Made by a program: the position numbers and the translations under genes. The notes below the pieces were generated by a model. It was not told where the DNA came from, did no database searches, and saw nothing but the letters and a program-made list of their open reading frames with translations. Below, piece by piece: positions 17,679 to 48,891 of a DNA stretch of 64,000 nucleotides. The stretch comes from Chthoniobacterales bacterium (GTDB taxonomy: Bacteria; Verrucomicrobiota; Verrucomicrobiia; Chthoniobacterales; UBA6821). Within the stretch, counting starts at the first letter, position 1. Every line of letters starts with the position of its first letter. Location of the stretch: contig JBIIGI010000003.1 in NCBI GenBank assembly GCA_044236545.1, forward strand, positions 7,709 through 71,708, written 5' to 3'.

Positions 17679-17780
17679 GGCTTGGGATTTTTGCGCCGCG
17701 CAGCGTTGCTGTTCGCTTGCCGTAGGTTTACTACGGCATTCGCTCACGACGCCTCGCGCGGCATCAAAACTTCCGGCGCC
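17678..17780. repeat. ~100-bp hairpin-forming extragenic repeat, copy A
   Basis: Starts at the aminotransferase stop codon. It aligns along its whole length with 53354-53453. Internal arms gccgcgc...gccgtag / ctacggc...gcgcggc. Confidence 0.6.
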
Positions 17781-18061
17781 TTATACCATCTCCACTCTTA
17801 TTCCCGTGAAATCAGCTGGTTCTTTCGGCGATGGGCGTTGTTGTTATCCCTCGGGTTATCTTCAGATAGCCCTGGGTCTTCCGCCTAGCCCATCACCAAA
17901 ATCCCTTCGCTAATTCCACCAGACTAATCATGGAAATGGTATTACAGGCTGTACTTCAGCTTCAGTCTATCCACCTTTTCTTCTAGATCGGATTCATAAA
18001 CCTGCGCTCGCTGATTCCCTTCAGCCTTCAGTCTTCAGCCTAAACCCCTTCCGTCCCCACC

Positions 18062-36608: not shown

Positions 36609-36672
36609 ACCCTCCCATGGTTTTGGTCAGAGTGAGCAACTTGGAAATCCCCCGCTGAGAAAAATTTTCCAC

Positions 36673-36693
36673 TGCCTTGTGGTGTAACGGTAG
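36673..36693 (+). repeat. attL: 21-bp copy of the 5' end of tRNA-Gln
   Basis: tgccttgtggtgtaacggtag is identical to 45367-45387. The sequences diverge immediately on both sides. Confidence 0.75.
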
Positions 36694-36767
36694 GACTATT
36701 CTGGGTTGTTTGGGATGCGCTTCTACTCTGTTAGAGTGTTTTTTTCTTCGGTAGAATGAAAGAGGTG

Positions 36768-36785
36768 TGGGGAACTATGGGGAAC
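36768..36785 (+). promoter_or_regulatory. Two TGGGGAAC repeats 10 bp apart, inside attL (candidate integrase arm-type sites)
   Basis: tggggaac at 36768-36775 and 36778-36785. The related pair ttttggggaag/ttttggggaac lies inside attR at 45312-45333. Confidence 0.4.
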
Positions 36786-36833
36786 AAGTCCTATTGCCTT
36801 TGATACTAGGGGATTCAACATTGATGAGTCTGC

Positions 36834-36869
36834 CAAAACAAAATGGGTGCCCTTGGGGGCACCCATTTT
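36834..36869 (-). terminator. Rho-independent terminator downstream of the integrase gene
   Basis: Stem atgggtgccc / gggcacccat with loop ttgg. On the minus strand it is followed by ttttgttttgg. Confidence 0.65.
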
Positions 36870-36891
36870 GCACAACACACACATTTACAGT

Positions 36892-37914
36892 TCAGAAAGG
36901 ATCTGGTGGTGGAGTGACACGAGACAGTGCCGCCTCCGAATCTTTGATGTTCAGGCGAGAGTAAATTTTGTGCACATCATCAGATGAGTGATTTACCAAC
37001 TGCATTGCCTCCAATGCAGTCAATCCCGCCCTGTGGCATCTAGTTATAAAGCTGACTCGGCATGAGTGTGAGGTGGCTTCGCAAACAGATTTCAAGACCT
37101 CATTGAATCTCTGATTGGATGACTTCTTGAACTCAGGAACGGAGTATCCCTCCTCCCATTTGAGACCTTGGAGGTACTCCACAAATCGTTCCTTCATTGG
37201 CACTGTGTAGAGTTTGCGAGGATCGTTTGCCTTCCTTTTGCTGTCCTCGATCTGGATAGTCTTGTTTACAAAGTCCACACGAGATTTGTGGATTCGTGCC
37301 TCATTGAAGCGACAACCCAAGTTGATCAAGATCTCAAAGACTGTACCCATCCATTCGTCCTTGGATTTTAGTGTTTCACGGATTTTTTGAATTTCATCAG
37401 AGGTAAGCTCTTTTTTTTGCTTTGCTGGCACAATAGGGAAACGAGCAAGGCTGATAACGTTCTTATCCAAGAACTCCCTTGCACAAGCCTCCCTCAAAAT
37501 GCCTTTGAAAAAGCCGATCTCAAGTCGTGCTGTGTTGTGTTTGACCTGCTGCTTTCTCCATTCAACGTACTCCATGACATGCTGGTACTTGAACTCCCTT
37601 GGGTGACGTATTTTTTTACCTTTCAACCACCCAGCGATGGTATCCCAAGCGATCTGGTAACGTTCTAGGGATCTAGGATTCTTGTAGTGGGATTGAAGGT
37701 GCATTGGTACCCATGCTGAGAAGTCACCACCATTTTGTGGGGAGACCGCTTGCTCTGCGGCGGTGCGTTTGGCGCATTCCTTGTGGGCTTTGATGGTGTC
37801 TTGATCGTTATCATGCCTCAATTTCAGGCACTCATCCTTCCAAATGCCCGTCTCCAAATCCCGGAAGCGAATATACCAGTATGGGGACCTTTTGACTTTT
37901 TTAAGCGATGCCAT
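36892..37914 (-). CDS. int: Tyrosine recombinase / phage-type integrase
   Basis: Start MASLKKVKRSPYWYIRF (typical integrase N-terminus). Catalytic elements GCRFNEA (Arg), HSCRVSF (HxxR) and VHKIYSR (Tyr). Confidence 0.85.
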   Translation of the reverse strand: MASLKKVKRSPYWYIRFRDLETGIWKDECLKLRHDNDQDTIKAHKECAKRTAAEQAVSPQNGGDFSAWVPMHLQSHYKNPRSLERYQIAWDTIAGWLKGKKIRHPREFKYQHVMEYVEWRKQQVKHNTARLEIGFFKGILREACAREFLDKNVISLARFPIVPAKQKKELTSDEIQKIRETLKSKDEWMGTVFEILINLGCRFNEARIHKSRVDFVNKTIQIEDSKRKANDPRKLYTVPMKERFVEYLQGLKWEEGYSVPEFKKSSNQRFNEVLKSVCEATSHSCRVSFITRCHRAGLTALEAMQLVNHSSDDVHKIYSRLNIKDSEAALSRVTPPPDPF

Positions 37915-38158
37915 GATCAGCCCCCCCAGAGATTGATGCCATGAATTGCCGAACCCAACGGACGGTAGTTTTTCGCCCAATGAACCTGCATCCACGCCTT
38001 TTCCAAAAATTGATCGTTTCCTTTCGAACTCCGATGATGTCGGCAATGTTCTGGGGGAATTCGAGTCGATCCAAGTCCCAAGCAAGCTTCTGATTGGGAT
38101 TTTGAACAATGAAGCCCTGATCATCCAAACCTTTAGATATTCTTATCAGATTATTCAT
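37901..38158 (-). CDS. Excisionase/AlpA-like helix-turn-helix protein
   Basis: 85 aa, overlaps the int start by 14 nt. HTH-like segment NIADIIGVRKETINFWKRRG. Confidence 0.5.
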   Translation of the reverse strand: MNNLIRISKGLDDQGFIVQNPNQKLAWDLDRLEFPQNIADIIGVRKETINFWKRRGCRFIGRKTTVRWVRQFMASISGGADHGIA

Positions 38159-38165
38159 GGCTATC

Positions 38166-38178
38166 TCTATTTAAATAG
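38166..38178. promoter_or_regulatory. Palindromic candidate operator TCTATTTAAATAG just upstream of the xis-like start
   Basis: The same 13-mer recurs at 41442-41454, upstream of the other leftward operon. Confidence 0.4.
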
Positions 38179-38829
38179 CCCTAACTAGTTTTCCTTGTTT
38201 AATAACAAGAATCCGTAAGATATAAAAGCAATGGGATCTTTTAATACCTTCTCTGTGGAATTTGATTAACTGCGCTTCTCGATTCATGATGGCTGAATCA
38301 TAGCAATTATTTCCGGTAAAGCCGAGACTATAGTTCAATAAACAAGACCCATCAGTGTAATTTTCTTATTTCAATTAGGATTTAATCGTACAGGACGATT
38401 CTTATTGACTTTACCAGAAATCTCTTATAGCATAGCGACACTGATTGCTCATCCATGAGCGATTGGCTACATACCTAAAAACACCCAGATTCGAGGGAAA
38501 AGTTGCTATTTTAACGATAAAAGTAGTCGTTTTAAGCGATTTTCTGAGATCCTAGAGGTGGGTTTACTCTGAAGGATATTCTAATCTTACGGAATAAAGA
38601 CCACCGGGCGTGATTGGGCTTTGTATTAGACTCAAGTTCACTCTCCCAATCACAAAAATTATTGAAATGAACAAGCCAGTTGTAAGTAAGACTGTTATAC
38701 ACGGAATCAGGCAACTCACTTGCAGAACCTAATGAAATGTATTTCTCACATACCTAAAACGCAGCTATAGGCTGTAGTCTACAGTATTGATAATATATAA
38801 AACACTTCAATCATGATATAATATTCAAA

Positions 38830-39657
38830 ATGAAACCTTCTGTAGACATACTTGATCACATTCATCGCAATAAGGATATTATATCCATCTGTGATGGAGT
38901 CCCAATTTACCAAGTAGGGAGGTATCTCTATTATGGTCAAGATCGGGTGACTTCAGAGTTCATCTCTTTTATCAAGATTCCTTTCTCTTATGTCTCTCAT
39001 ATCAGATTTAATCCCAAGAGGTACTTAAACTCTAATTCTAGAAGGCTTAGAAGTGCATTTGTAAATCTTCTGCTTAAAGAGATAAACGCATACATAATAG
39101 GATCTTATCCCAAAATTATTTCTGGGAAACGTACCATTAGATGTATTTTAAAGACCGAGTATGGATCAATTGATGATCAGGCTCATGTCCACATCCTTTG
39201 GCTGATTGATGAAAGAGTCAGAGATCTGGTGTCTGAAGCTGTCTTTGAGTTTTTTTCCAATCATATGGATAAGACTTCCGGACCGATACAGTCGATTGTC
39301 ACCCAACCGATTCAGAATGTAGGCGAACAAATCTCATATTTCTGTAAAGTTCAAGGAACAAGAGATCCTGATTATCAGTACTTTAATGGGTTTAAGAGGA
39401 TCTTGAAAAAGTATCAAACCAGTGCTGCCGTATCGCTCCCCGATCATCTAGCATACCAAAACCAATGTCATTCTTTACCAGCTTTCCTTCAAAGGACTGT
39501 TCTACTCCCAGGGATTACCAGCGGCTTTTCAAAACCAAAGACATCCCATTCTTGGGACTTCTCCTTTCAAAGCCCTGTTCTGAGAATGTTCATGAGACCT
39601 TCGATTCCCCTTTGGGATACTACTCTTACAGCTTCGAGAAACCAGCTGACGGAATGA
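38830..39657 (+). CDS. Hypothetical protein with HUH-like (HVHILW) and YxxK-like (YFCK) motifs; possible HUH endonuclease/Rep
   Basis: 275 aa, island-like composition. QAHVHILWLID is followed about 50 aa later by EQISYFCKVQG. No other family signature recognised. Confidence 0.5.
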   Translation: MKPSVDILDHIHRNKDIISICDGVPIYQVGRYLYYGQDRVTSEFISFIKIPFSYVSHIRFNPKRYLNSNSRRLRSAFVNLLLKEINAYIIGSYPKIISGKRTIRCILKTEYGSIDDQAHVHILWLIDERVRDLVSEAVFEFFSNHMDKTSGPIQSIVTQPIQNVGEQISYFCKVQGTRDPDYQYFNGFKRILKKYQTSAAVSLPDHLAYQNQCHSLPAFLQRTVLLPGITSGFSKPKTSHSWDFSFQSPVLRMFMRPSIPLWDTTLTASRNQLTE

Positions 39658-40109
39658 AGATTACCTCTCAGATCAGTCAGAAGACTCTGAGGAGGCTCTT
39701 CAGAGAGAAGTTCTTCGGATTTAGAGAGGCTTTAACCCAAACAGGCATCGGAAACTGTGGGTACGAACTGAGGATCAAGGAACGCCCTTTACGCCTTCCA
39801 AATTCTCGGATGGGTAAAGACCTAGAAAGGTTCGGAAAAACGATTGTACGCCCATTTACGGCGCAGGAAGACCCATTCCTGATGAAGCTCAAGGACGTTC
39901 CCCTGTACTCATGGCTTGATGACAGTGAAGAAGAGCGTGTGAACCTGCCTTTCTGCCCCTTAGATGGTCCTGGAATATCCCTTCTTAAAGCATCCATACG
40001 CACACCAAGAACCCATTGGAACGGATGCGGAAGGGAATGGGGATTCAGGATTTGCGGTGACTGCCTTGGAGTTCTTGGATCCCTTCCTGTCTATTTGAAG
40101 CAATCCTGA
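39654..40109 (+). CDS. Hypothetical protein, Cys/His-rich C-terminus (possible zinc ribbon)
   Basis: ATG 39654 overlaps the upstream stop (ATGA). C-terminal FCPLDG...HWNGCGREWGFRICGDC. Confidence 0.5.
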   Translation: MKITSQISQKTLRRLFREKFFGFREALTQTGIGNCGYELRIKERPLRLPNSRMGKDLERFGKTIVRPFTAQEDPFLMKLKDVPLYSWLDDSEEERVNLPFCPLDGPGISLLKASIRTPRTHWNGCGREWGFRICGDCLGVLGSLPVYLKQS

Positions 40110-40624
40110 AAAGCCTTCTCTTCTTGGGAGTCGAGTAGAAGTCCGTATTCCCTGAGATTTTCCAAGGGCCAACGCTGACCTGCAATTTTCTCCACAGGAA
40201 TATACTCGTTCATCAGTTCTGCAATCTGGTAGTAATCGGTCACAAAAGTTGGCTCATGGATCTGATTCTGTCCTCTGCGAGTTGCCTTGTCTTCAAGAGC
40301 AGCCCAATCAGTCTCTTTGAGCTTCGTAGGTGAATCCAACTGAACCCAGCTAAGTGGACGCACCTTTCTTTCGTCTGCCATCAGGAGCAACAGAAGGCTT
40401 CCATCGAACAATGAGGTTCTGGCATGGACTGAGAGAACGGTCTTGGAAGATCTGTTCATCAACATATCCCACACCATCAGGATCGAATTCGGTTTTTGAT
40501 GTCCGAGCCCAATCAAATCAATCTCTAAACGATCTGGTTGCTCCTCCAGAGCCTTTAACACCTTTTCGTAGAGTTCTTTAACTCCATCATCAGCAAGGTT
40601 TAAGACCAAACGGTAAGTCTTCAT
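40091..40624 (-). CDS. Hypothetical protein, degenerate ClpP/S14-like fold (tentative)
   Basis: 177 aa. IDLIGLGHQKPNSILMVWDMLMNRSSKTVLSVHARTSLFDGSLLLLLMADERKVRP aligns by eye with ClpP IYLYINSPGG...GQAASMGAFLL..G..GKR. The C-terminal LREYGLLLD resembles ClpP A.EYGL.D. The catalytic His position is not conserved. Confidence 0.45.
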   Translation of the reverse strand: MKTYRLVLNLADDGVKELYEKVLKALEEQPDRLEIDLIGLGHQKPNSILMVWDMLMNRSSKTVLSVHARTSLFDGSLLLLLMADERKVRPLSWVQLDSPTKLKETDWAALEDKATRRGQNQIHEPTFVTDYYQIAELMNEYIPVEKIAGQRWPLENLREYGLLLDSQEEKAFQDCFK

Positions 40625-40875
40625 TGGATGGGCTTATCCAAAAGTCGATTCACGTTCAAAAACTCTACCAAGGCATCAAACAATAAGTCGGGAATCACAT
40701 CTGAATCGACATCGACTTCAAAGTACTGCTCAAAGGCTTCAACTTCAGAGATTGTTGCCTCTACCTCGAAGGTTTGGGACTCGTTTTCAAAGAAGCAGAC
40801 TTCAGGACATCCATTGGAACGAGCATCATCAGTGTAAAGGAGTTTCCCAGCCTCCTTGGTGGTGAATTTGATCAT
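40621..40875 (-). CDS. Small, strongly acidic hypothetical protein
   Basis: 84 aa with 19 Asp/Glu against 6 Lys/Arg by my count. ATGA-type 4-nt overlap with the downstream gene. Confidence 0.5.
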   Translation of the reverse strand: MIKFTTKEAGKLLYTDDARSNGCPEVCFFENESQTFEVEATISEVEAFEQYFEVDVDSDVIPDLLFDALVEFLNVNRLLDKPIQ

Positions 40876-40880
40876 CAGGG

Positions 40881-41366
40881 TTATCCCTTGAGGGAATACT
40901 GAGTGGTTTTCTTGCTACCCGTGATCTCAAGGAAGTCTTTGCAGTTTTTCTGGAAGGCTATGAACCTCGGGCGAGAGATATCCAAAGCGGCAAAAATCTC
41001 TTTGCTTCCTGCCTTCCTGCCACCAGCTAGCAATGTCGAAAGCTTCTGTTTCAACACCTCATCAGTAACAGTGGGATGGAATTTACGGATGCCCCGATGT
41101 TTGGATGCGGTCGGAGTGCTTTCCACAGTGTGACCAAGCTCTTTTAACTTATCATGTATCTCCTTTAACTCTGCTTTGAGTTTAACCTGAAGACCTTCGA
41201 TCTGTTGATTATACTGGGTCTTGATATGATTTTCTCTGATCAAAAGCTGTTCAATTGCCTTCTGCTTCATCTGCTTAAACTCATCAAAGAAGTTTTTATC
41301 CAAATTAGAGTCAGGGGATTTAATATCAGAAGTCTTTGGCTCAGAAGACTTGAATGGATTAATCAT
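40881..41366 (-). CDS. Hypothetical coiled-coil protein with a possible C-terminal winged-helix
   Basis: 161 aa. The central region (KQMKQKAIEQLLIRENHIKTQYNQQIEGLQVKLKAELKEIHDKLKEL) has heptad-like character. First gene of a three-gene leftward operon. Confidence 0.5.
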   Translation of the reverse strand: MINPFKSSEPKTSDIKSPDSNLDKNFFDEFKQMKQKAIEQLLIRENHIKTQYNQQIEGLQVKLKAELKEIHDKLKELGHTVESTPTASKHRGIRKFHPTVTDEVLKQKLSTLLAGGRKAGSKEIFAALDISRPRFIAFQKNCKDFLEITGSKKTTQYSLKG

Positions 41367-41441
41367 TTGACCATTAAATCAAAAATAACTGGTAAACGCA
41401 AGAACGAAATTCAATATGAATGCTATTCAATAAAACGGCAA

Positions 41442-41455
41442 TCTATTTAAATAGA
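41442..41455. promoter_or_regulatory. Perfect 14-bp palindrome TCTATTTAAATAGA within a putative promoter of the 41366-40091 operon
   Basis: On the minus strand it lies between TTGAAA and TAGATT (16-nt spacer), about 75-88 nt upstream of the ATG at 41366. Confidence 0.4.
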
Positions 41456-41590
41456 GGTTATTTTCAAAATCCTGTTTTATTACAAGATTTGATATTATCC
41501 TTACCCATCTGTTAATTTTTCTTACTAGCAGGAGGCGATGACTGGTCGATGGTATTGCATATTCGATCTTACGGGTAAGTAACTACCGGC

Positions 41591-41866
41591 ATGAAAAGAA
41601 AGAAACGCAAACCGAACTCCCTATATGCAAATGCATCCCTAACCATCAGACTCCCGTACAGTGCAAAAGCTCTTATCCGAGACTTCTCAGAGACCAAGAA
41701 ACGCACACTAACCAAGACGGTCTTGGATGCTATCGACAGGTATCATCCACTCAGAGCCTTCCATGACAGGAAACTGGATGAGATGGCTAGAATTTGCGGA
41801 GAACTGCCTCCTGAAGTAGAAAAAGAGACCACTGCCCTATTTCCCTTCATGCTGGAGAGCGAGTAG
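41591..41866 (+). CDS. Hypothetical protein, possible ribbon-helix-helix DNA-binding protein
   Basis: 91 aa. SLTIRLPYSAKALIRDFSETKKRTLTKTVLDAI has the strand-helix-helix pattern of CopG/Arc-type proteins. Confidence 0.4.
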   Translation: MKRKKRKPNSLYANASLTIRLPYSAKALIRDFSETKKRTLTKTVLDAIDRYHPLRAFHDRKLDEMARICGELPPEVEKETTALFPFMLESE

Positions 41867-42019
41867 TCGATACAGGACACCTCAAGACTCGCTACAAAAT
41901 TCTTGGAGAGTGATATTCATGCAAGCGATTACATGATCTTTCTACACCAAACGGCTTTCAGTGCAATCACTACGTGCAGTCATGCTGCACCGTCTGATGA
42001 TTGTCATATGACTTGAGAG

Positions 42020-42577
42020 TCAAGCAGCCTTCGCCTTCAAATCCCTGTAAAACGTAGCTCTAGAAATTTTCAACGTCTGGCAAATCTGATTGATGCTCAT
42101 TTTGCCGTCCTTGTAGAGAGTGGATGCGCTGGCGATCCGATTCTCATTCACAGACTTGGGCCTCCCTCCCAGCCGCCCTCGTGCCCTGCTTGCCAATAGA
42201 CCTGCCTGTGTCCTTTCTCGAATGAGGCTTCTCTCGAATTCTGCCATTGCTCCAAATATTTGGAACACGAGCATCCCTGCCGAGTTTGTTGTGTCCACTG
42301 GCTGAGTCAGGCAACGAAATCCGATGCCTCTATCCTTGAGCGTGTTGATCGTCTCGATCAGGTCTCGAAGACTCCTTCCAACCCGATCCAACTTCCAACA
42401 AACGATCACATCACCACTTCGGGCAAACTCGATTGCTTCCCTCAATCCCTTTCGATCTGATTTCGCACCAGAGGCAATATCTTGGAATATGCGCTCACAC
42501 CCAGCCTTCTTCAGTTCATCCTCTTGTAAGTAAAGGAATTGATCCGAGCACGAAACTCTCATGTACCCAATGTTCAC
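42020..42577 (-). CDS. Serine recombinase (resolvase/invertase family)
   Basis: 185 aa. N-terminal IGYMRVSCSDQ (catalytic Ser), VCWKLDRVGRS, and a C-terminal HTH (SINQICQTLKISRATFYR). Confidence 0.9.
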   Translation of the reverse strand: MNIGYMRVSCSDQFLYLQEDELKKAGCERIFQDIASGAKSDRKGLREAIEFARSGDVIVCWKLDRVGRSLRDLIETINTLKDRGIGFRCLTQPVDTTNSAGMLVFQIFGAMAEFERSLIRERTQAGLLASRARGRLGGRPKSVNENRIASASTLYKDGKMSINQICQTLKISRATFYRDLKAKAA

Positions 42578-42744
42578 TTGGGAAGATTACCAAGAATATC
42601 TCATAAAGTCAACTAAAAAACATAAAATGAGACATAGAAATATGAGACGAGTTTATGAATCATATTTTATGCGTTTCTAGAGTATCAACAGAAAAAATCT
42701 CTTTGAATCATCAAGGCTACGTTTTTTGAGACAGTTCAAGGCAG

Positions 42745-42781
42745 AAAAAAACCCATCCCCAGTATAAGAGGATGGGTTTTT
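42745..42781. terminator. Bidirectional rho-independent terminator
   Basis: aaaaaaa-cccatcc-(11 nt)-ggatggg-ttttt. Lies immediately downstream of the 62-aa gene on the minus strand. Confidence 0.65.
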
Positions 42782-42799
42782 GAGAAGTTATCTTTTAGA

Positions 42800-42988
42800 T
42801 TACCTTTGATACTTGAACTCACCATCGGAACCATACGTTATGGATGCGCCAACGCTGTCCTTAACCGTAACAGTTGAAGATGTGTATCCGATCAACTCTG
42901 TTCCATCCTTTTGAAACTTATAATTTCCATTTTCATCATAAACAATCACTGAATTCCCATCTTGCTTTGCAGATCCTATTGCGCTCAT
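42800..42988 (-). CDS. Small hypothetical protein (62 aa, beta-rich)
   Basis: Followed by a strong terminator and divergent from the XRE gene. No family recognised. Confidence 0.45.
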   Translation of the reverse strand: MSAIGSAKQDGNSVIVYDENGNYKFQKDGTELIGYTSSTVTVKDSVGASITYGSDGEFKYQR

Positions 42989-43158
42989 GTAGTTATTATG
43001 TTAGTTTTGCTCTAGTGTTTTAAAAGCAAGTAGTTACCTTGCCTTTAATTGGATGTATGTCAATTTCTTGACCACGCAATCGTAATGCATGGCAAGAGCC
43101 ACGCAAGCAAGAATATCCCGAAAATCGGATAATCCTGTTTCTGGGTTAATTCTAGCCC

Positions 43159-43416
43159 TTGAAAAAGCGGCTATCTAAATCCCTCTACTCAGACCGCTGG
43201 GAGCAGTTGCTCAAAATCCTGAAACGCCTTCGTGTTGAAAAAGGGCTGACTCAAGTGCAGCTTGCAGCCCAGCTTGATCGCCCACAGTCGCTCATTGCCA
43301 AGATTGAATCTGGAGAGCGCAAGTTGGATGTCTGTCAGTTCCTCGACTACTTGGAAGCTCTGGACGCAAGCGCAGAGGAAGTAGTTCGAGAGATTGAGCA
43401 GACTGTGAAGGAGTGA
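43159..43416 (+). CDS. XRE-family helix-turn-helix transcriptional regulator
   Basis: LRVEKGLTQVQLAAQLDRPQSLIAKIESGERKLDV is a canonical HTH_3/XRE motif. The track start is a TTG codon. Confidence 0.7.
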   Translation: MKKRLSKSLYSDRWEQLLKILKRLRVEKGLTQVQLAAQLDRPQSLIAKIESGERKLDVCQFLDYLEALDASAEEVVREIEQTVKE

Positions 43417-43426
43417 AGAGCGATCC

Positions 43427-44272
43427 CTAAAAATCAAGGAACCACTGCTCATCAACCATCACTTCTTGAACAACTCTCTCCTTCACGGAAATGCCTAGTC
43501 GAAAGTCTTTGAGCATCTGAACCAATTCACTCCCATCAATCAGATCCAGTGGAGTAGCCCCGTCCCGAAGTGCTTCTAACCTAGCTTCTCTGGTGAAGGT
43601 ACCTGTTGTGATAATGATCCCTTTATCAGCCCTGCCATCCATTGCTCCTCTGAAATCTCTAATCACAGCATTGGAGACACTTCCTTTGTACCGTTTGCAC
43701 TGGAAGAAGACGTGAAACGATAGGATTGCACCCATTTTCAAAATCCCCTTGCCATCAATACCTCCATCTCCAGAGCGTCCAGTAACTTCAACTTGAACGA
43801 AACCTGCCTCCCTGAGGACCCGTTGGCATAATCTCTCGAAAGCCTCTGGTTTGATATTCTTAACAGCCTCAAGAACTTCCGTTTCCCATTTTCTACCATC
43901 ACCATTGATATCGGTCTTTGGCTGCTCAGGTTTTTTGGCATTTTTACGGAGGGCATAGCTTTCAGACCTGTTTTTCCGTTTAACCTCATCCTTGTTAACC
44001 TGCTTGGTCTTTTGACCTTCAGAGGTCAAAGCCCATACTCCTCTCGCGGAATTCTCAATCAACCCAAACTGTTTCAAGTAGGATCTTGCCCAAGCAAGAT
44101 TGTACGAAAACTTTGGTCTATTGCCTTCGTGGATTACCTCCAGATCTTTGTCTGTCAACTTGAGGTCAGCGGCAACTTTCTCTTCAAGCTCTGATATGCT
44201 GGCTGAACCACCAAGAGCGTGAAGTGCCTTTAAAAGCGGGTTGATGAGTTCGTCATATTTTGGAACAGCCAT
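43427..44272 (-). CDS. mrr: Mrr-type restriction endonuclease (Mrr_N winged helix + Mrr catalytic domain)
   Basis: N-terminal PKYDELINPLLKALHALGGSASISELEEKV and catalytic region GRSGDGGIDGKG...FQCKRY. Confidence 0.85.
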   Translation of the reverse strand: MAVPKYDELINPLLKALHALGGSASISELEEKVAADLKLTDKDLEVIHEGNRPKFSYNLAWARSYLKQFGLIENSARGVWALTSEGQKTKQVNKDEVKRKNRSESYALRKNAKKPEQPKTDINGDGRKWETEVLEAVKNIKPEAFERLCQRVLREAGFVQVEVTGRSGDGGIDGKGILKMGAILSFHVFFQCKRYKGSVSNAVIRDFRGAMDGRADKGIIITTGTFTREARLEALRDGATPLDLIDGSELVQMLKDFRLGISVKERVVQEVMVDEQWFLDF

Positions 44273-44392
44273 AAATCATTCAATAATGGGCGATGGTGAA
44301 AACTCTGGTGATACGGAGTTCTGAAGGATGATGCTAGGCAATGCAACCTTCTTATCTTGATGGATCATCAGGAAAGGCAGCATTCTGTGGAT

Positions 44393-45241
44393 ATGGCTAC
44401 TTGGATCTTTCAAGGGAATCCCAATCTTTTTGATATAGATGACTACCTCACGAGATACCAACAGTTGGTGTACTGGAGAACTCCCACCCAGAGAAATTCG
44501 ATTGCCCTTGGTGATCGTGCCTTCATGTGGAGGTCAGGCGATTCCAGCGGAATTGTTGCTTCGGGCGTTGTCGTAGAGCTTCCTGCCATTGAATCACAAC
44601 TCAAGCATCCTGAAGCTTTAGGAGCCGATCTCTGGATTGCAGATGAGTTGGCAGCAAGAAGGACAGATCCAAACGCTCCCAAGGTGGGAATATCTCTGGA
44701 TTCTGTTCGTTTGAACGAAGAGGAAGGGATGATCTCTCGCTCTCTTGTCAAAGAAGACCCAATTCTTTCTCAGAACACGATCATCAGGCAGCCAAACGCT
44801 ACGGTCTTTTCCGTTACTACAGATCAGGCATCAAGACTTGAAGAGGTGTGGGGAGGCTCGGTGGCGAAACTCAACGAGTCCTTTGAAACGTCAGCGATAG
44901 AAGGTGATAAAAAGGTCTACTCCCATCGAAAGAGGGAGAGATCCAGATTCCTTGTCGGAAAGAAATTGGAACAGGCAAGAAGGGCAGGTGCAATTCGGTG
45001 TGAAGTCTGCCAAATCACCGAGGAAGGTGTGTATCCACAGCCTTTTGCAGCACGGATTTTTGAGGTTCATCACTTGATGCCTCTTTCTCAGGTCGAAACT
45101 CCAAGGATGACCACTCTCGATGACCTTGCGGTGGTGTGCGCAAACTGCCACAGAGCAATCCATGCCACGACTCAGGTGGAGGAAAACTTTCTGGCGCTGA
45201 AGCGATCTTTTGGGAAAAGCAATCTCACGGAATCAGGTTGA
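44393..45241 (+). CDS. Putative PUA/EVE-like domain fused to an HNH endonuclease
   Basis: The N-terminus WIFQGNPNLFDIDDYL...ALGDRAFMWRSGDSSGIVASGVVVE looks EVE/PUA-like by eye. C-terminal HNH: CEVCQ...FEVHHLMPLS...CANCHRAIH. Alternative start at 44357/44360. Confidence 0.65.
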   Translation: MATWIFQGNPNLFDIDDYLTRYQQLVYWRTPTQRNSIALGDRAFMWRSGDSSGIVASGVVVELPAIESQLKHPEALGADLWIADELAARRTDPNAPKVGISLDSVRLNEEEGMISRSLVKEDPILSQNTIIRQPNATVFSVTTDQASRLEEVWGGSVAKLNESFETSAIEGDKKVYSHRKRERSRFLVGKKLEQARRAGAIRCEVCQITEEGVYPQPFAARIFEVHHLMPLSQVETPRMTTLDDLAVVCANCHRAIHATTQVEENFLALKRSFGKSNLTESG

Positions 45242-45311
45242 TCCAATTGGATTGTGTTGGCATAATCACTCTCCCTTCGACCTAGCTTGAAGGGCATGTT
45301 CATCAGCCCCC

Positions 45312-45333
45312 TTTTGGGGAAGTTTTGGGGAAC
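45312..45333 (+). promoter_or_regulatory. Two TTTTGGGGAA(G/C) repeats 11 bp apart, inside attR (candidate arm-type sites)
   Basis: ttttggggaag at 45312-45322 and ttttggggaac at 45323-45333, in the same orientation as the TGGGGAAC pair at 36768-36785. Confidence 0.4.
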
Positions 45334-45366
45334 AGCCCGTAGAGCCAGTGTTTAAGAGGTACAAAT

Positions 45367-45440
45367 TGCCTTGTGGTGTAACGGTAGCACAGCAGACTCT
45401 GAATCTGCTTGTCATGGTTCAAATCCATGCGAGGCAGCCA
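45367..45440 (+). tRNA. tRNA-Gln (anticodon CTG), CCA encoded
   Basis: A 74-nt cloverleaf folded by hand: acceptor tgccttg/cgaggca, D arm gtgt-aacggta-gcac, anticodon arm gcaga-ctCTGaa-tctgc, T arm catgg-ttcaaat-ccatg, discriminator g, then CCA. The first 21 nt are attR. Confidence 0.9.
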
Positions 45441-46387: not shown

Positions 46388-46861
46388 ATGCGCCTGCCTC
46401 CAGCGCCCAGCGTGGATCGTCCCTTGATGGCGGTGGTCCTACTCCTGCCGCTTTTCTTTACGGGATGCGCCATGCTGACGCCTCCTGCCGCGTCACCGGC
46501 GATCTATGAATCCAAGCCCACCTCCATCGAGTATGGCAAGGCCTCCTTTTACGGCGGTAGGGATATCGGGAGAGCCACTGCCAATGGAGAGCGCTACCAC
46601 GCTTCAAACTGCACGGCGGCCCATAAAAAATTACCATTCAACACCATGGTCAAGGTGACCAATCTCAAGAACGGCAAGAGCGTTCTTGTCCGGATCAATG
46701 ATCGGGGCCCTTTCGTCAAGGGGCGGATCATCGACCTCACTGTGGTCGCCGCCCGGAAGATCGAGATGATGTCCGACGGCATTATCCCGGTACGGGTGGA
46801 GGTCTTGAAGCCGATCGAAGTAATCCGGAAGCCGAATCGCGTTCTGGAACAGGGACGGTAG
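46388..46861 (+). CDS. rlpA: Septal ring lytic transglycosylase RlpA-family lipoprotein (DPBB domain)
   Basis: Lipobox LFFTGC. DPBB core GKASFYG...TANGERY...[34 protein letters not shown]. Confidence 0.8.
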
Positions 46862-46924
46862 TGAATTTCTTCTGGGAAATGAAAAGGGGTTGACTCTTTC
46901 AAAAACATATCATCAAATGCAGAT

Positions 46925-47566
46925 ATGTTGATTAAAGAGATCTCAAAAGGCTTGCTTTGTGCTTCAGCCCTTGCATTCCTCGCTTCCATCAGTACTCTAA
47001 AGGCAGCGGTTCTGACTGGCATTGATCCGGTCAGCTTTACCGTGGGTAGCGGGCCGGATGTCTCTTATCTCTTGATTGATGAGTCCACCCTCTCATCGGC
47101 GCCCCTGCTTTTTGAATATCGCTATACATATGATATTCTTAACCCGATTTCAGGGTACGAACTGCTGCATGAGGTCGCGAGATTCTCCTCCTTGGACTTC
47201 ACTACCATTTTCTACGGTGGCGGGTTGGGCAATGCGCTCGATTCGGTCAGTTATGGAGGGATAACGGTTTCCTCTTTCACTGCGCCTGATTTGTCTACTG
47301 GAACCTATTGGTCCTATTATGTAGCGGGTGGTTCTGAGGTCGATGAGCCGCTTGCCGCAGGTTTATGGAAGTATGCCGAGGTCGGCATGGATTCGCGGTT
47401 CATCACACCGGGTTCATGGGATGGTTGGACTTTGGCAGGTTGGAACCCCAGTTTTGGCGAAGCACCCTCAATATCCCCAGTGCCCGAGCCGGCCCCGTTG
47501 CCGCTTGCGGTTCTTTCCTTGGCTGCGCTTTTCTTTTTCATTCGATGGAAACAAAAGTGGTCCTGA
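46925..47566 (+). CDS. PEP-CTERM sorting-domain secreted protein
   Basis: N-terminal signal peptide. C-terminal VPEPAPLPLAVLSLAALFFFIRWK (PEP motif, TM segment, basic tail). Confidence 0.7.
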   Translation: MLIKEISKGLLCASALAFLASISTLKAAVLTGIDPVSFTVGSGPDVSYLLIDESTLSSAPLLFEYRYTYDILNPISGYELLHEVARFSSLDFTTIFYGGGLGNALDSVSYGGITVSSFTAPDLSTGTYWSYYVAGGSEVDEPLAAGLWKYAEVGMDSRFITPGSWDGWTLAGWNPSFGEAPSISPVPEPAPLPLAVLSLAALFFFIRWKQKWS

Positions 47567-48291
47567 AATCTTCACGGCGTGGTGCCTTCACCCTGACTGA
47601 GTTGCTTATCACGATATCGATCGTGGCTGTGTTGGGGGTCATCCTGATCCCGGCGGCGCAAAGCGTTTTTGCCTCCTCAACCGGGGCCACCAGCGCCCAT
47701 TGCATCGCTCAGCTCAATGCCGCCGCCCAGTCCTATCTGGCCGAGAACAACATGACCTACTGGCCATACAGGGTCAGCACGAACGGTGGAACCCAGTGGT
47801 GGTTCGGTTTTGAATCACAGCAAAGCCTTCGCTCCCCGGAAGGAAAGCGTTGGCTCGATCTCAATCAAGGCCCGCTTGGCCCATACATTGCGGCCTCCGG
47901 GGGAATGTCTACGGACCCTTCGTTTTCACGTGCAAGGAACACGTTCAAGCCGAAATACGGTTCCACTCATTTTGCCTACGGCTACAATCTCCTCCTCCAG
48001 GGCAGATCTTCACTCGCTCTGAGCAGTCCGGGAAAGGTTCCTGTTTTCGCCACCTGTGCCCAGGTGAACACGTTCCAAGCTCCCGCCTCCGCAAGAAAGC
48101 CGATGGTGGAGGAATTCTACTATTTCAACACCACCGAGAGAACCGTCCACTTTCGCGTGGGGGGGCAGGCCATGGTGGGGTATGCCGACGGATCAGCCGG
48201 ATATCTTCCAATGATGGCCGGAACGCTTGATTCTCGGATGCCCGGTGCCAATATCGGCCGACTTGATCCCACCCTTATCACTCCTCAATAG
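47545..48291 (+). CDS. Prepilin-type N-terminal cleavage/methylation domain protein (pseudopilin-like)
   Basis: GAFTLTELLITISIVAVLGVIL is a class III signal. Start ATG 47545; the longer track ORF overlaps the preceding gene. Confidence 0.75.
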   Translation: METKVVLKSSRRGAFTLTELLITISIVAVLGVILIPAAQSVFASSTGATSAHCIAQLNAAAQSYLAENNMTYWPYRVSTNGGTQWWFGFESQQSLRSPEGKRWLDLNQGPLGPYIAASGGMSTDPSFSRARNTFKPKYGSTHFAYGYNLLLQGRSSLALSSPGKVPVFATCAQVNTFQAPASARKPMVEEFYYFNTTERTVHFRVGGQAMVGYADGSAGYLPMMAGTLDSRMPGANIGRLDPTLITPQ

Positions 48292-48891
48292 ATGAATTCC
48301 AACCAACTCTCCTCTCGTTCGGCGATCATGGCCCTGATCCTGCTCTTTGCCGGCCTCTTCTTCCGGGTGATCCGCGTCGAGGTGGCTCCCGATATCCTTC
48401 CGAACTTCTCGCCGCTCATGGCGGCCGCCCTCTGCGGTGCGGTGTTCATTCCGGGATGGCTGGGGTTGGTTGTTCCTGTCGTGGCCTTGCTGTTTTCCGA
48501 TGCCGCGCTGAATGCTCACTATGGAGAGCCGGTGATTTCCCCGCAGCTTCTCTGGACGCTGCCCTGCTATCTGATCGCAGTCGGTATCGGTTGGTTGCTC
48601 AGGGAACAAAGAGAGCGCCGCGCAGGTCTTTGGCCGATTCTCGGTGGCACCTTGCTCTCCTCGGTGATCTTTTACGTGGTGACCAACACGGGTAGTTGGC
48701 TCGGCTTCACCGCCTATCCTCAGAACCTTGCCGGATGGTTGCAGGCTCTCACCACGGGTCTGCCCGGCTATCCGCCGACCTGGACATTCTTCCGCAACAG
48801 CCTGATCGGCGACCTCCTCTTTGCGGCGTTCTTCATCGCGGTGGAACGCTCCGTCGCGCCTTCCCCGCAACCCGCCAAGGCGAGGGCCTGA
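48292..48891 (+). CDS. Integral membrane protein of unknown function (DUF6580-like, tentative)
   Basis: 199 aa with five to six hydrophobic segments. Confidence 0.6.
   Translation: MNSNQLSSRSAIMALILLFAGLFFRVIRVEVAPDILPNFSPLMAAALCGAVFIPGWLGLVVPVVALLFSDAALNAHYGEPVISPQLLWTLPCYLIAVGIGWLLREQRERRAGLWPILGGTLLSSVIFYVVTNTGSWLGFTAYPQNLAGWLQALTTGLPGYPPTWTFFRNSLIGDLLFAAFFIAVERSVAPSPQPAKARA

What the first reader, a model, noticed from the sequence alone, without database searches (positions are those of the whole stretch)
36673..45387. 8.7-kb AT-rich integrative island at tRNA-Gln with recombinases, restriction-type genes and two operons of unknown function
Composition drops abruptly between the GNAT gene and tRNA-Gln. 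The segment is bounded by a perfect 21-bp direct repeat (36673-36693 and 45367-45387). It encodes a tyrosine integrase with an HTH excisionase-like gene next to attL, a serine recombinase, an XRE regulator, Mrr and a putative EVE-HNH nuclease. Seven further ORFs could not be confidently assigned to a family: 38830-39657, 39654-40109, 40091-40624, 40621-40875, 40881-41366, 41591-41866 and 42800-42988. Unknown operons sitting beside restriction genes on a mobile element are a classic setting for novel defence, anti-defence or satellite functions.
Basis: partly seen in the sequence, partly recalled or inferred. Interest (0 to 1): 0.7.

Follow-up and report, generated by a model that had tools for sequence, protein, structure and literature searches.

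The report
Small integrative rolling-circle island at tRNA-Gln
This is a real 8.7-kb mobile island inserted into the front end of a glutamine tRNA gene of a Verrucomicrobiota bacterium; its "unknown" genes are the conserved replication and control backbone of a rare, undescribed element family, and the restriction genes are swappable cargo, so it is an interesting but fairly ordinary kind of mobile element rather than a new defence system.

Summary
A perfect 21-bp direct repeat (36673-36693 and 45367-45387) is the first 21 nt of tRNA-Gln(CTG). GC falls from about 0.63 to 0.35-0.50 between the copies. A related genome has the empty site, with the GNAT gene followed directly by the tRNA. Two other genomes or contigs carry related islands at the same site with the same 21-mer.

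The seven unassigned ORFs are not a defence operon. They belong to a backbone conserved across about ten related loci:
- a tyrosine integrase and a small Xis-like gene;
- a 670-bp conserved non-coding region;
- an HUH/YxxK rolling-circle Rep, distantly related to Pfam REP_ORF2-G2P;
- a 214-aa gene, whose true start is 39465 and not 39654;
- a ClpP-fold protein without a conserved catalytic triad;
- a coiled-coil protein with a conserved C-terminal domain;
- a CopG-like ribbon-helix-helix protein;
- a small serine recombinase and an XRE regulator.

Cargo varies between relatives. Here it is Mrr plus EVE-HNH; elsewhere it is Dcm/Vsr restriction-modification systems or PEP-CTERM surface proteins. 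A sister element was found both integrated and as an 11,401-bp circle carrying the predicted attP.

Most likely this is an integrative element that excises and replicates, or is mobilised, through its Rep. It is a new member or variant of a known kind, of moderate interest.

The parts
36673..36693 (+). attL core: the displaced copy of tRNA-Gln nt 1-21, still joined to the native upstream region of the tRNA
   Evidence: The same junction is present in L008 and L014. The outer flank matches the empty site in L010.
36694..36891 (.). Inner arm of attL (P' arm). It has two TGGGGAAC repeats (36768-36785) and a perfect 14-bp hairpin (36839-36870) just downstream of the int stop.
   Evidence: Sequence blocks are conserved with L008 and L014. 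All three TGGGGAAC copies in the window lie in the att arms. The hairpin is inverted repeat I7. The roles as arm-type integrase sites and as a terminator are inferred.
36892..37914 (-). Tyrosine integrase, 340 aa from M71 (the open frame runs on to 38124)
   Evidence: Pfam Phage_integrase E 2.5e-9 and PHROG 1 E 5e-35. The 340-aa orthologues in L008 and L014 start with MASL(K/R)KVKRSPYWYIRFRD.
37901..38158 (-). Xis/RDF-like small protein (85 aa), overlapping the int start by 14 nt
   Evidence: It is conserved upstream of int in L008, L014 and L015. No profile or PDB support was found. The function is inferred from position.
38159..38829 (.). Conserved non-coding region between xis and rep, a candidate origin and control region. 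It contains the palindrome CTATTTAAATAG (38167-38178), ATCTTACGG motifs (38213-38221 on the minus strand and 38584-38592 on the plus strand), and a hairpin at 38513-38531.
   Evidence: It is 74-88% identical to relatives whose rep gene is only 63-67% identical. Motif counts are well above chance. There is no Rfam hit and only weak covariation. A short conserved minus-strand ORF at 38171-38338 is possible.
38830..39657 (+). HUH rolling-circle Rep (275 aa). The catalytic domain spans about aa 1-200; the tail is disordered and overlapped by the next gene.
   Evidence: E110, H119, H121 and L123 are invariant, and Y170 and K173 are at least 90% conserved, across 29 family members. 15 of 29 members hit PF23343, and two pass its gathering score. 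The order of secondary-structure elements in the AF2 model fits an HUH fold.
39465..40109 (+). Conserved 214-aa protein of unknown function with a Cys-rich C-terminus (CGREWGFRICGDC).
   Evidence: Substitutions in 39430-39653 follow this reading frame, not the rep frame. The start MSFF..PRD..KTKDIPFIG is conserved in all close relatives. No Pfam or PDB hit.
40091..40624 (-). ClpP-fold protein (177 aa), a core backbone gene
   Evidence: AF2 model has pLDDT 86. The top 50 PDB matches are all ClpP, with probability 1.0 and TM 0.55-0.60. No Ser-His-Asp triad is conserved. Homologues occur in L001-L009, L014, L015, L019 and L022.
40621..40875 (-). Acidic 84-aa protein, an accessory gene
   Evidence: It is present in L008, L009 and L019. 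In L001-L005 it is replaced by a 416-552-aa DUF2628/GYF protein, and it is absent from L014.
40881..41366 (-). Protein with an N-terminal coiled coil and a conserved C-terminal domain (161 aa), a core backbone gene
   Evidence: Homologues occur in all related loci, including the divergent L022 (hhalign 99.5%). No family or PDB hit. DNA binding is inferred.
41367..41590 (.). Divergent control region with the second copy of CTATTTAAATAG (41443-41454) and the third ATCTTACGG (41566-41574)
41591..41866 (+). CopG-like ribbon-helix-helix protein (91 aa)
   Evidence: The best PDB profile hits are CopG-family regulators, AmrZ and MazE4, at weak E-values of 0.018-0.58. It is conserved in L008, L009, L014 and L019.
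42020..42577 (-). Small serine recombinase of the resolvase/invertase type
   Evidence: Pfam Resolvase E 1e-42 and HTH_7 E 2e-14. It is conserved in all long-enough related loci.
42800..42988 (-). 62-aa beta-rich protein upstream of the recombinase, an accessory gene
   Evidence: A 61-aa homologue is present in L001-L003 and absent from L014. No family hit.
43114..43131 (.). Palindrome TATCC-N8-GGATA in a conserved 50-nt block upstream of the XRE gene
   Evidence: In L001 this block is duplicated on either side of a cargo gene.
43159..43416 (+). XRE-family HTH regulator (85 aa, TTG start)
   Evidence: Pfam HTH_31 and HTH_3. A close homologue is conserved from the first residue in L014.
43427..44272 (-). 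Cargo: Mrr-type (type IV) restriction endonuclease
   Evidence: Mrr_N E 3e-22 and Mrr_cat E 6e-30. PADLOC mREase_IV and PDC-S02. It is absent from all related islands.
44357..45241 (+). Cargo: EVE-HNH nuclease, predicted to be modification-dependent
   Evidence: EVE E 2.6e-7 and HNH E 2.7e-7. PADLOC mREase_IV E 2e-4.
45242..45366 (.). Inner arm of attR (P arm). It has one TGGGGAAC (45326-45333) and a promoter-like site (45238-45266) that could drive the re-formed tRNA.
   Evidence: It is 83% identical to the L014 arm although the adjacent cargo differs. Searches give the motif and the promoter match. The promoter is a consensus match only.
45367..45440 (+). attR core (45367-45387) and the intact tRNA-Gln(CTG)

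Best explanation
The segment 36673-45387 is an 8,694-bp site-specific integrative element in the chromosome of a Verrucomicrobiota bacterium (Chthoniobacterales/Spartobacteria-like).

**Integration.** It sits in the 5' part of tRNA-Gln(CTG). The tyrosine integrase recombined a 21-bp core shared by attP and the first 21 nt of the tRNA gene. The intact tRNA now has island DNA upstream of it. The displaced 5' fragment stays with the native upstream region next to int.

**Family.** The element belongs to a small, undescribed family with a conserved backbone:
- an exchangeable integrase/Xis module;
- a 670-bp conserved non-coding region;
- an HUH/YxxK rolling-circle Rep;
- a 214-aa protein;
- a ClpP-fold protein;
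- a coiled-coil protein;
- a CopG-like RHH;
- a small serine recombinase;
- an XRE regulator.

**Proposed cycle.**
- Int plus Xis excise a circle. This is shown for a sister element.
- Rep nicks an origin, probably in the conserved region upstream of rep, and drives rolling-circle replication and/or serves as a relaxase for transfer. This is inferred.
- The resolvase-type recombinase resolves multimers. This is inferred.
- A shared palindromic operator upstream of xis-int and in the divergent ORF161/ORF91 control region couples excision to backbone expression. This is inferred.

**Cargo.** Mrr and EVE-HNH are cargo that give the host modification-dependent restriction.
For: **Boundaries and site**
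- The empty site is in L010.
- Related islands with the same 21-mer lie between GNAT and tRNA-Gln in L014, a 7,070-bp island, and in L008.
- A Logan contig equals window 36664-45396 exactly. It therefore breaks at both junctions, as expected if occupied and empty sites coexist in that sample.

**Family and mobility**
- Backbone synteny holds across L001-L009, L014, L015, L019 and L022.
- At least three integrase types are used.
- L003 is a circular contig of 11,401 bp. Its junction is exactly the attP predicted from the attL and attR of L001.
- The same element has two different outer flanks (L001 versus L004).

**Rep**
- The invariant residues E, HxH and YxxK are shown.
- The model's secondary-structure order is beta-alpha-beta-beta-alpha-beta-alpha, with HUH on a strand and Tyr on a helix.

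**Cargo varies**
- The window carries Mrr and EVE-HNH.
- L008 and L019 carry Dcm, Vsr and a restriction enzyme.
- L001 and L014 carry PEP-CTERM proteins.

**Control sites**.

**Literature**: integrative mobilisable elements that carry rolling-circle initiators or Rep-related relaxases are known (PMC5704250).
Against: - The window's own Rep has no Pfam, PHROG or PDB hit. Its model is weak (pLDDT 51.5), and the fold searches were not decisive.
- No origin or nick site has been identified.
- No circle or attP was seen for this exact element. The Logan contig shows no attP branch.
- No transfer genes, relaxase accessory genes or coupling protein are present, so horizontal spread is unexplained.
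- Three core proteins (ORF214, ORF177 and ORF161) have no assigned function.
- The ClpP-fold protein lacks a conserved triad.
- The role of the serine recombinase is untested.
Confidence: 0.78

Rival explanations
1. It is an integrative mobilisable element in the strict sense. The HUH protein acts only as a relaxase at an oriT in the conserved non-coding region, and the island is transferred by the mating apparatus of a conjugative element. It does not replicate autonomously.
For: Relaxases related to rolling-circle initiators are documented in such elements (PMC5704250). The island has no transfer genes of its own. The 670-bp conserved non-coding region could be an oriT.
Against: No conjugative element or coupling protein appears in the window or in any related locus. 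The circular contig of the sister element is more easily assembled if the circle is maintained at appreciable copy number. Relatives of the ClpP-fold module occur beside a primase-helicase-type gene (DUF5906) in L020, which points to replication modules being swapped.
Confidence: 0.2
2. It is a phage satellite. The backbone operon (ClpP-fold protein, acidic 84-aa protein, coiled-coil protein) senses or hijacks a helper phage, and the island is packaged in helper capsids.
For: The size (7-11 kb) and gene content (int, xis, a replication gene and regulators, with no structural genes) resemble satellites. ClpP-fold proteins serve as prohead proteases in some phages (my own knowledge, not tested here). 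Defence cargo is common on satellites.
Against: No hallmark satellite genes (terS, capsid-size redirection, a pri-rep type primase, Psu/Sid) were found in Pfam or PHROGs. No relative was found in IMG/VR or in phage genomes. The catalytic triad of the ClpP-fold protein is not conserved. No helper phage is known.
Confidence: 0.08
3. This is the first reader's view: the unassigned operons are a novel defence or anti-defence system travelling with the restriction genes.
For: The genes lie between restriction genes and have no family assignment. The 84-aa protein is very acidic, as DNA-mimic anti-restriction proteins are (my own knowledge, not tested).
Against: The same genes are kept in islands whose cargo has no restriction genes (L001-L005, L014). 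They always travel with int and rep, and one of them is the Rep itself. No PADLOC hit is better than a coiled-coil artefact. The acidic protein is the one dispensable member.
Confidence: 0.07
4. It is a degraded filamentous (inovirus- or plectrovirus-like) prophage, of which only the Rep and regulators remain.
For: The Rep family is closest to Pfam REP_ORF2-G2P and YagK_YfjJ_C, families of filamentous-phage-type initiators.
Against: No Zot/pI-type morphogenesis ATPase or coat-like small membrane proteins were found in any of about ten related loci. The backbone is conserved and under purifying selection, it is mobile, and it is absent from viral collections.
Confidence: 0.04

Closest known systems
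tRNA-gene genomic islands as defined by Islander (tyrosine-integrase islands bounded by an intact tDNA and a displaced tDNA fragment)
   Same: It has an intact tRNA-Gln and a same-orientation fragment, an integrase inside, a length of 8.7 kb, an AT-rich composition, and an empty site in a relative.
   Different: The duplicated part is the 5' portion of the tRNA (nt 1-21 here; nt 1-46 plus 4 upstream nt in the tRNA-Gly sister elements). The island therefore sits upstream and must supply the tRNA's upstream region. This configuration is accepted by Islander (PMC4383910). The review read here lists the 3' end as the usual tRNA-gene site (PMC5704250).
Integrative and mobilisable elements that encode rolling-circle initiators or Rep-related relaxases (e.g. 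streptococcal IMEs with Rep_trans; review PMC5704250)
   Same: It is a small element with a tyrosine integrase, an Xis-like gene, a single HUH protein, regulators and adaptive cargo, and it has no mating-pore genes.
   Different: The Rep belongs to a different and rare clade (27 clusters among 1.8 billion representatives), nearest to REP_ORF2-G2P. The host phylum is Verrucomicrobiota. The backbone also includes a ClpP-fold protein, a 214-aa Cys-rich protein and a resolvase. No oriT or helper is known.
Integrative plasmids of the pSAM2 type in actinomycetes (my own knowledge, not tested here)
   Same: Both use tRNA-gene integration by Int/Xis, followed by excision and replication of the circle with an element-encoded initiator.
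   Different: The pSAM2 type carries an FtsK-like transfer protein and integrates at the 3' end of a tRNA gene. Neither is the case here.
ClpP (S14) proteases and ClpP-fold NfeD-type proteins
   Same: ORF177 has the ClpP fold. One distant family member lies next to a Band_7/SPFH gene, as NfeD proteins do.
   Different: No Pfam CLP_protease or NfeD hit was found, and no Ser-His-Asp or Ser-Lys set is conserved. It is probably not a canonical protease.
Mrr and EVE-HNH modification-dependent (type IV) restriction enzymes
   Same: The domain architectures match: Mrr_N+Mrr_cat and EVE+HNH.
   Different: Nothing unusual. These are ordinary cargo.

Membership tests
tRNA-targeting integrative island (Islander-type) | An intact tDNA plus a displaced fragment of the same tDNA, in the same orientation, with a 5' fragment lying upstream | tested here: met
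   The configuration rule is taken from PMC4383910.
tRNA-targeting integrative island (Islander-type) | A tyrosine integrase gene inside the interval | tested here: met
   Pfam Phage_integrase and PHROG 1.
tRNA-targeting integrative island (Islander-type) | An unoccupied site in related genomes | tested here: met
   In L010 the GNAT gene is followed directly by tRNA-Gln.
tRNA-targeting integrative island (Islander-type) | Excision to a circle carrying attP | tested here: inconclusive
   This is shown for the sister element (L003 circle versus L001 integrated). It was not seen for the window's own element.
HUH endonuclease / REP_ORF2-G2P (PF23343) | An HUH metal-binding motif and a downstream catalytic Tyr (YxxK) | tested here: met
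   H119, H121 and E110 are invariant, and Y170 and K173 are at least 90% conserved, in 29 sequences.
HUH endonuclease / REP_ORF2-G2P (PF23343) | The window protein itself scores above the Pfam gathering threshold | tested here: not met
   No hit even at E 1.
HUH endonuclease / REP_ORF2-G2P (PF23343) | Homology reached through intermediate family members | tested here: met
   15 of 29 members hit PF23343. P0011 (29.5 bits) and P0013 (32.1 bits) exceed the 27.8-bit cut-off, and they match the window's family profile at E about 1e-21.
HUH endonuclease / REP_ORF2-G2P (PF23343) | An HUH (ferredoxin-like beta-alpha-beta-beta-alpha-beta) fold | tested here: inconclusive
   The model has pLDDT 51.5, though the order of its elements fits. 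Foldseek finds only generic ferredoxin-like matches, with HUH transposases far down the list. The BFVD search was weak.
HUH endonuclease / REP_ORF2-G2P (PF23343) | Nicking and joining activity at an origin | not testable with these tools
   This needs biochemistry.
ClpP (S14) serine protease | ClpP fold | tested here: met
   The model has pLDDT 86. The top 50 PDB matches are all ClpP, with TM 0.55-0.60.
ClpP (S14) serine protease | A conserved Ser-His-Asp catalytic triad | tested here: not met
   The invariant residues are G39, L49, L72, L78, L81, R86, R89 and P143. The candidate Ser positions vary between S and T, and no His is conserved.
Integrative mobilisable element | Own integration/excision module plus a relaxase and oriT, but no mating pore | tested here: inconclusive
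   The int/xis module is present and no pore genes were found. The Rep could act as a relaxase, but no oriT or helper has been identified.
Phage satellite (PICI, P4-like, PLE) | Hallmark genes: a primase-helicase replicase, small terminase, capsid-redirecting proteins | tested here: not met
   None were found in Pfam or PHROGs.
Inovirus/plectrovirus prophage | A pI/Zot-type morphogenesis ATPase and coat proteins | tested here: not met
   None were found in the window or in related loci. There were no viral-collection hits.
Type IV restriction (Mrr; EVE-HNH) | Mrr_N+Mrr_cat, and EVE+HNH, domain architectures | tested here: met
Small serine recombinase (resolvase/invertase) | An N-terminal resolvase catalytic domain plus a C-terminal HTH_7, about 185 aa | tested here: met

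The most novel reading that the evidence does not exclude
The backbone defines a new lineage of verrucomicrobial integrative replicons with three distinctive features. It enters the 5' half of tRNA genes and brings its own tRNA upstream region. It uses a new clade of HUH initiators. Its conserved trio of ClpP-fold protein, coiled-coil protein and 214-aa Cys-rich protein forms a new control or helper-exploitation module, for example a protease-like switch for induction or a satellite-type interaction with a phage. The 670-bp non-coding region, which is better conserved than rep, could hold a new kind of origin or a regulatory RNA.
Probability: 0.15. Interest if true: 0.65.

Novelty: new variant of a known kind. 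Interest (0 to 1): 0.38.

Why it matters
- **Poorly known phylum.** Mobile elements of Verrucomicrobiota are almost unknown. This gives a delimited, apparently active family with known att sites, a circular form, an empty site and defined cargo slots. Such a family could be a starting point for genetic tools in this phylum.
- **Annotation lesson.** Unknown genes next to restriction genes on an island can simply be the element's own replication and control backbone.
- **Restriction cargo.** Sibling elements carry either cytosine-methylating restriction-modification systems or modification-dependent nucleases. This hints at competition between related elements, but that is speculation.
- **Overall.** In kind, this is a familiar type of element.

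Tried and rejected
- **Profile scans.** Pfam, PHROGs, PADLOC and NCBIfam scans of all unknown ORFs gave nothing significant.
- **PDB sequence searches.** Profiles of Rep, ORF177, ORF161, ORF214 and the Xis-like protein gave nothing. Only the RHH gave weak CopG hits.
- **Rep fold searches.** The PDB and BFVD searches with the low-confidence Rep model gave generic ferredoxin-like matches or low-TM matches, which are not decisive.
- **Public collections.** The Rep has no relatives in IMG/VR, INPHARED phages or PLSDB plasmids. The metagenome scan added only one locus.
- **Conserved intergenic region.** Rfam found nothing on the island. RNAalifold on this region showed weak covariation with only five sequences, so neither an RNA nor an origin could be established.
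- **50-nt duplication in L001.** I considered it as a recombinase site. It is more simply the XRE operator/promoter block reused upstream of the cargo gene. This was not resolved.
- **Inverted repeat around the recombinase.** I considered an invertible segment flanked by 41785-41803 and 43139-43157. The match is only 79% over 19 nt, and I did not pursue it.
- **ORF214.** A Walker A motif was checked by eye and rejected.

Full report

Yes. The 21-mer TGCCTTGTGGTGTAACGGTAG occurs at 36673-36693 and 45367-45387. With one mismatch the identity runs to 24 nt, and the two copies are 8,694 bp apart. The right copy is the first 21 nt of tRNA-Gln(CTG) at 45367-45440 (ARAGORN; Rfam tRNA at 63 bits). GC is 0.61-0.67 on both sides and 0.35-0.50 between the copies.

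- tyrosine integrase;
- Resolvase+HTH_7 (E 1e-42);
- XRE HTH;
- Mrr_N+Mrr_cat;
- EVE+HNH;
- GNAT on the left flank.

The seven unassigned ORFs have no significant hit in Pfam, PHROGs, PADLOC or NCBIfam.

**2. Is it an insertion?**

- A protein-guided scan of one genome per species found GNAT homologues only in Verrucomicrobiota (Chthoniobacterales/Spartobacteria) MAGs.
- In L010 the GNAT stop is followed after 65 nt by "aaccac" and then tRNA-Gln, with no island. The window's left flank "ttttccac" + 21-mer matches that empty site.
- L014, a 230-kb NCBI contig, has purF, GNAT, a 7,070-bp island bounded by the very same 21-mer, tRNA-Gln and then a DPBB gene. This is the same chromosomal neighbourhood as in the window.
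- L008 is 80% identical to the window from the GNAT 3' end through the left junction and the backbone, but it carries other cargo.
- A Logan contig (L018, 8,733 nt) equals window 36664-45396 with no mismatch. It holds exactly those 31-mers that contain at least one island-specific base. The assembly graph therefore branched at both junctions. My inference is that occupied and empty sites coexist in that sample. No attP branch was seen.

**3. What are the unknown ORFs?**

They are the conserved backbone of a small family of elements. ORF 38830-39657 has only five close homologues among 5.8 billion proteins. Their contigs, and those of more distant relatives, share the following gene order:
- Int;
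- a small Xis-like gene;
- a long non-coding region;
- this ORF;
- the next ORF;
- ORF177 (reverse strand);
- ORF84 or a larger replacement (reverse strand);
- ORF161 (reverse strand);
- a small plus-strand ORF91;
- cargo;
- a serine recombinase.

The divergent island L022 keeps Int, Rep, ORF177 and ORF161 (hhalign 99.3-99.5%).

Cargo differs from island to island:

| Locus | Cargo |
|---|---|
| window | Mrr + EVE-HNH |
| L008 | Dcm + MvaI/BcnI + Vsr |
| L019 | Vsr + unknown 285-aa ORF + Dcm |
| L009 | MvaI/BcnI |
| L001-L004, L014, L015 | PEP-CTERM surface proteins |
| L005 | BatD/GYF proteins |

The restriction genes are therefore the variable part and the unknown genes are the constant part.

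**4. The family is mobile.**
- L003 is a circular contig, with identical 141-nt ends from a k=141 assembly and a unit of 11,401 bp.
- L001 carries the same element integrated. It is flanked by a repeat at the same 11,401-bp spacing whose 50-nt exact core covers tRNA-Gly(GCC) nt 1-46 plus 4 upstream nt.
- The L003 junction is exactly the right end of the L001 element, then the core, then its left end. This is the predicted attP.
- L004 has the same left junction but a different outer flank.
- The integrase modules are exchangeable. There is a 340-aa type at tRNA-Gln, a 377-aa type at tRNA-Gly, and a third 428-aa tyrosine-recombinase-like protein in L019.
- Both mapped types duplicate the 5' portion of the tRNA gene. 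Islander's rules foresee this configuration (PMC4383910). The review read here names the 3' end as the usual tRNA-gene site (PMC5704250).
- As a consequence, the re-formed tRNA has island DNA upstream. In L001 the island-borne upstream stretch resembles the native one (85% over 106 nt). In the window a promoter-like site lies at 45238-45266, but this is a consensus match only.
- The inner att arms are conserved between the window and L014 although the adjacent cargo differs. All three TGGGGAAC octamers of the 64-kb window lie in these arms. I read them as candidate arm-type integrase sites.

**5. The 275-aa protein is a rolling-circle Rep.**
- An exhaustive profile search found only 27 representative clusters.
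- In an alignment of 29 sequences down to 22% identity, the only invariant residues are E110, H119, H121 and L123. Y170, K173 and N86 are at least 90% conserved. This is an HUH motif with an acidic third ligand and a YxxK tyrosine downstream.
- 15 of 29 members hit Pfam PF23343 (REP_ORF2-G2P), three hit YagK_YfjJ_C, and single members weakly hit Phage_GPA and Gemini_AL1.
- P0011 and P0013 exceed the curated cut-off (29.5 and 32.1 bits against 27.8).
- The window protein itself has no Pfam hit, so strict membership by that criterion fails. Homology is transitive.
- The AF2 model is weak (pLDDT 51.5). Its element order is beta-alpha-beta-beta-alpha-beta-alpha, with HUH on strand 118-126 and Y170 on helix 164-172, which fits. 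Residues 174-275 are disordered.
- The fold searches were not decisive.

**6. A gene boundary is corrected.**

In 39430-39653, substitutions against four relatives fall mainly on the third codon position of the downstream gene's frame, not of the rep frame. An ATG at 39465 followed by MSFF..PRD..KTKDIPFIGLLLSK is conserved in all close relatives. The gene is therefore 39465-40109 (214 aa) and overlaps the disordered tail of rep. It ends in a Cys-rich motif and has no detectable relatives of known function.

**7. Other backbone genes.**
- **ORF177.** It gave a confident model (pLDDT 86) whose top 50 PDB matches are all ClpP (probability 1.0, TM 0.55-0.60). The family of 59 proteins conserves no Ser-His-Asp set, so it has a ClpP fold but is probably not a canonical protease. 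A distant member lies next to a Band_7 gene. Another lies beside a DUF5906 gene and a resolvase.
- **ORF161.** It has an N-terminal coiled coil and a conserved C-terminal domain, and matches no known family.
- **ORF91.** Its profile weakly matches CopG-family RHH regulators (best E 0.018).
- **ORF84 and ORF62.** These are accessory: they are missing from or replaced in some relatives.

**8. Non-coding signals.**
- The 670-bp region between xis and rep is 74-88% identical to relatives whose rep is only 63-67% identical. It has no Rfam match and only weak covariation. I take it as the likeliest place for the origin and control sites, but this is inference.
- The palindrome CTATTTAAATAG occurs twice in the window (none expected by chance). 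One copy is just upstream of xis and the other lies between ORF161 and ORF91. It is conserved in relatives.
- ATCTTACGG occurs three times against 0.22 expected, at conserved positions.
- Together these suggest that one regulator controls both excision and the backbone operon.

**9. Comparison with known systems, and verdict.**

In kind, the island is a small tyrosine-integrase element with an HUH initiator, a resolvase, regulators and adaptive cargo. It is closest to integrative mobilisable elements or integrative plasmids that carry rolling-circle initiators (PMC5704250).

It is not a recognisable phage satellite or filamentous prophage. No hallmark genes were found, and there are no relatives in viral or phage collections. 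Nothing supports a new defence system in the unknown operons.

What is new:
- the family itself;
- its rare Rep clade;
- the consistent use of the 5' half of the tRNA gene;
- three core proteins of unknown role.

I rate it a new variant of a known kind, of moderate interest.

Noticed in passing
window 17780-17942: A 163-nt intergenic stretch is 95% identical to L004 123-285, a contig from a different verrucomicrobial host. It has no Rfam match. It could be an unannotated conserved small RNA or regulatory element.
   Followed up: partly
window 46500-48500: There is a second patch of lower GC (0.49-0.58) to the right of the tRNA. It encodes DPBB, PEP-CTERM and N-methyl (pilin-like) proteins. A DPBB gene also follows the tRNA in L014, so at least that gene is chromosomal synteny and not part of the island.
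   Followed up: partly
L001 11808-11857 and 13731-13780; window 43082-43131: In the sister element, a 50-nt block holding the palindrome TATCC-N8-GGATA, which lies upstream of the XRE gene, is duplicated on either side of a PATR/PEP-CTERM cargo gene. Either the operator/promoter is reused for the cargo, or this is a cargo-insertion site.
   Followed up: partly
window 43427-45241 versus L008 5547-8322 and L019 5958-8752: The window's island carries modification-dependent nucleases (Mrr, EVE-HNH), while sibling islands carry Dcm-type methylase systems with Vsr. Related elements might exclude one another through these systems. This is speculation and was not tested.
   Followed up: no
L020 2822-5422: A homologue of the ClpP-fold backbone protein lies beside a DUF5906 (primase-helicase type) gene, a resolvase and a GYF protein, rather than beside an HUH Rep. 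This suggests the module travels with different replication genes.
   Followed up: no
L010, L011, L012 contig ends: Three MAG contigs end within about 150 nt after the GNAT gene. L010 ends exactly at the 3' end of tRNA-Gln. Assemblies seem to break at this site, as expected for a hotspot occupied by variable islands.
   Followed up: partly
window 41785-41803 and 43139-43157: Imperfect 19-nt inverted repeats (79% match) flank the serine recombinase and ORF62 genes. This raises the possibility of an invertible segment, but the match is weak and may be chance.
   Followed up: no
window 38171-38338 (minus strand): A short open frame of 38-64 codons just upstream of the xis operator stays open in four of five relatives. 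It could be a small regulatory gene within the conserved non-coding region.
   Followed up: partly
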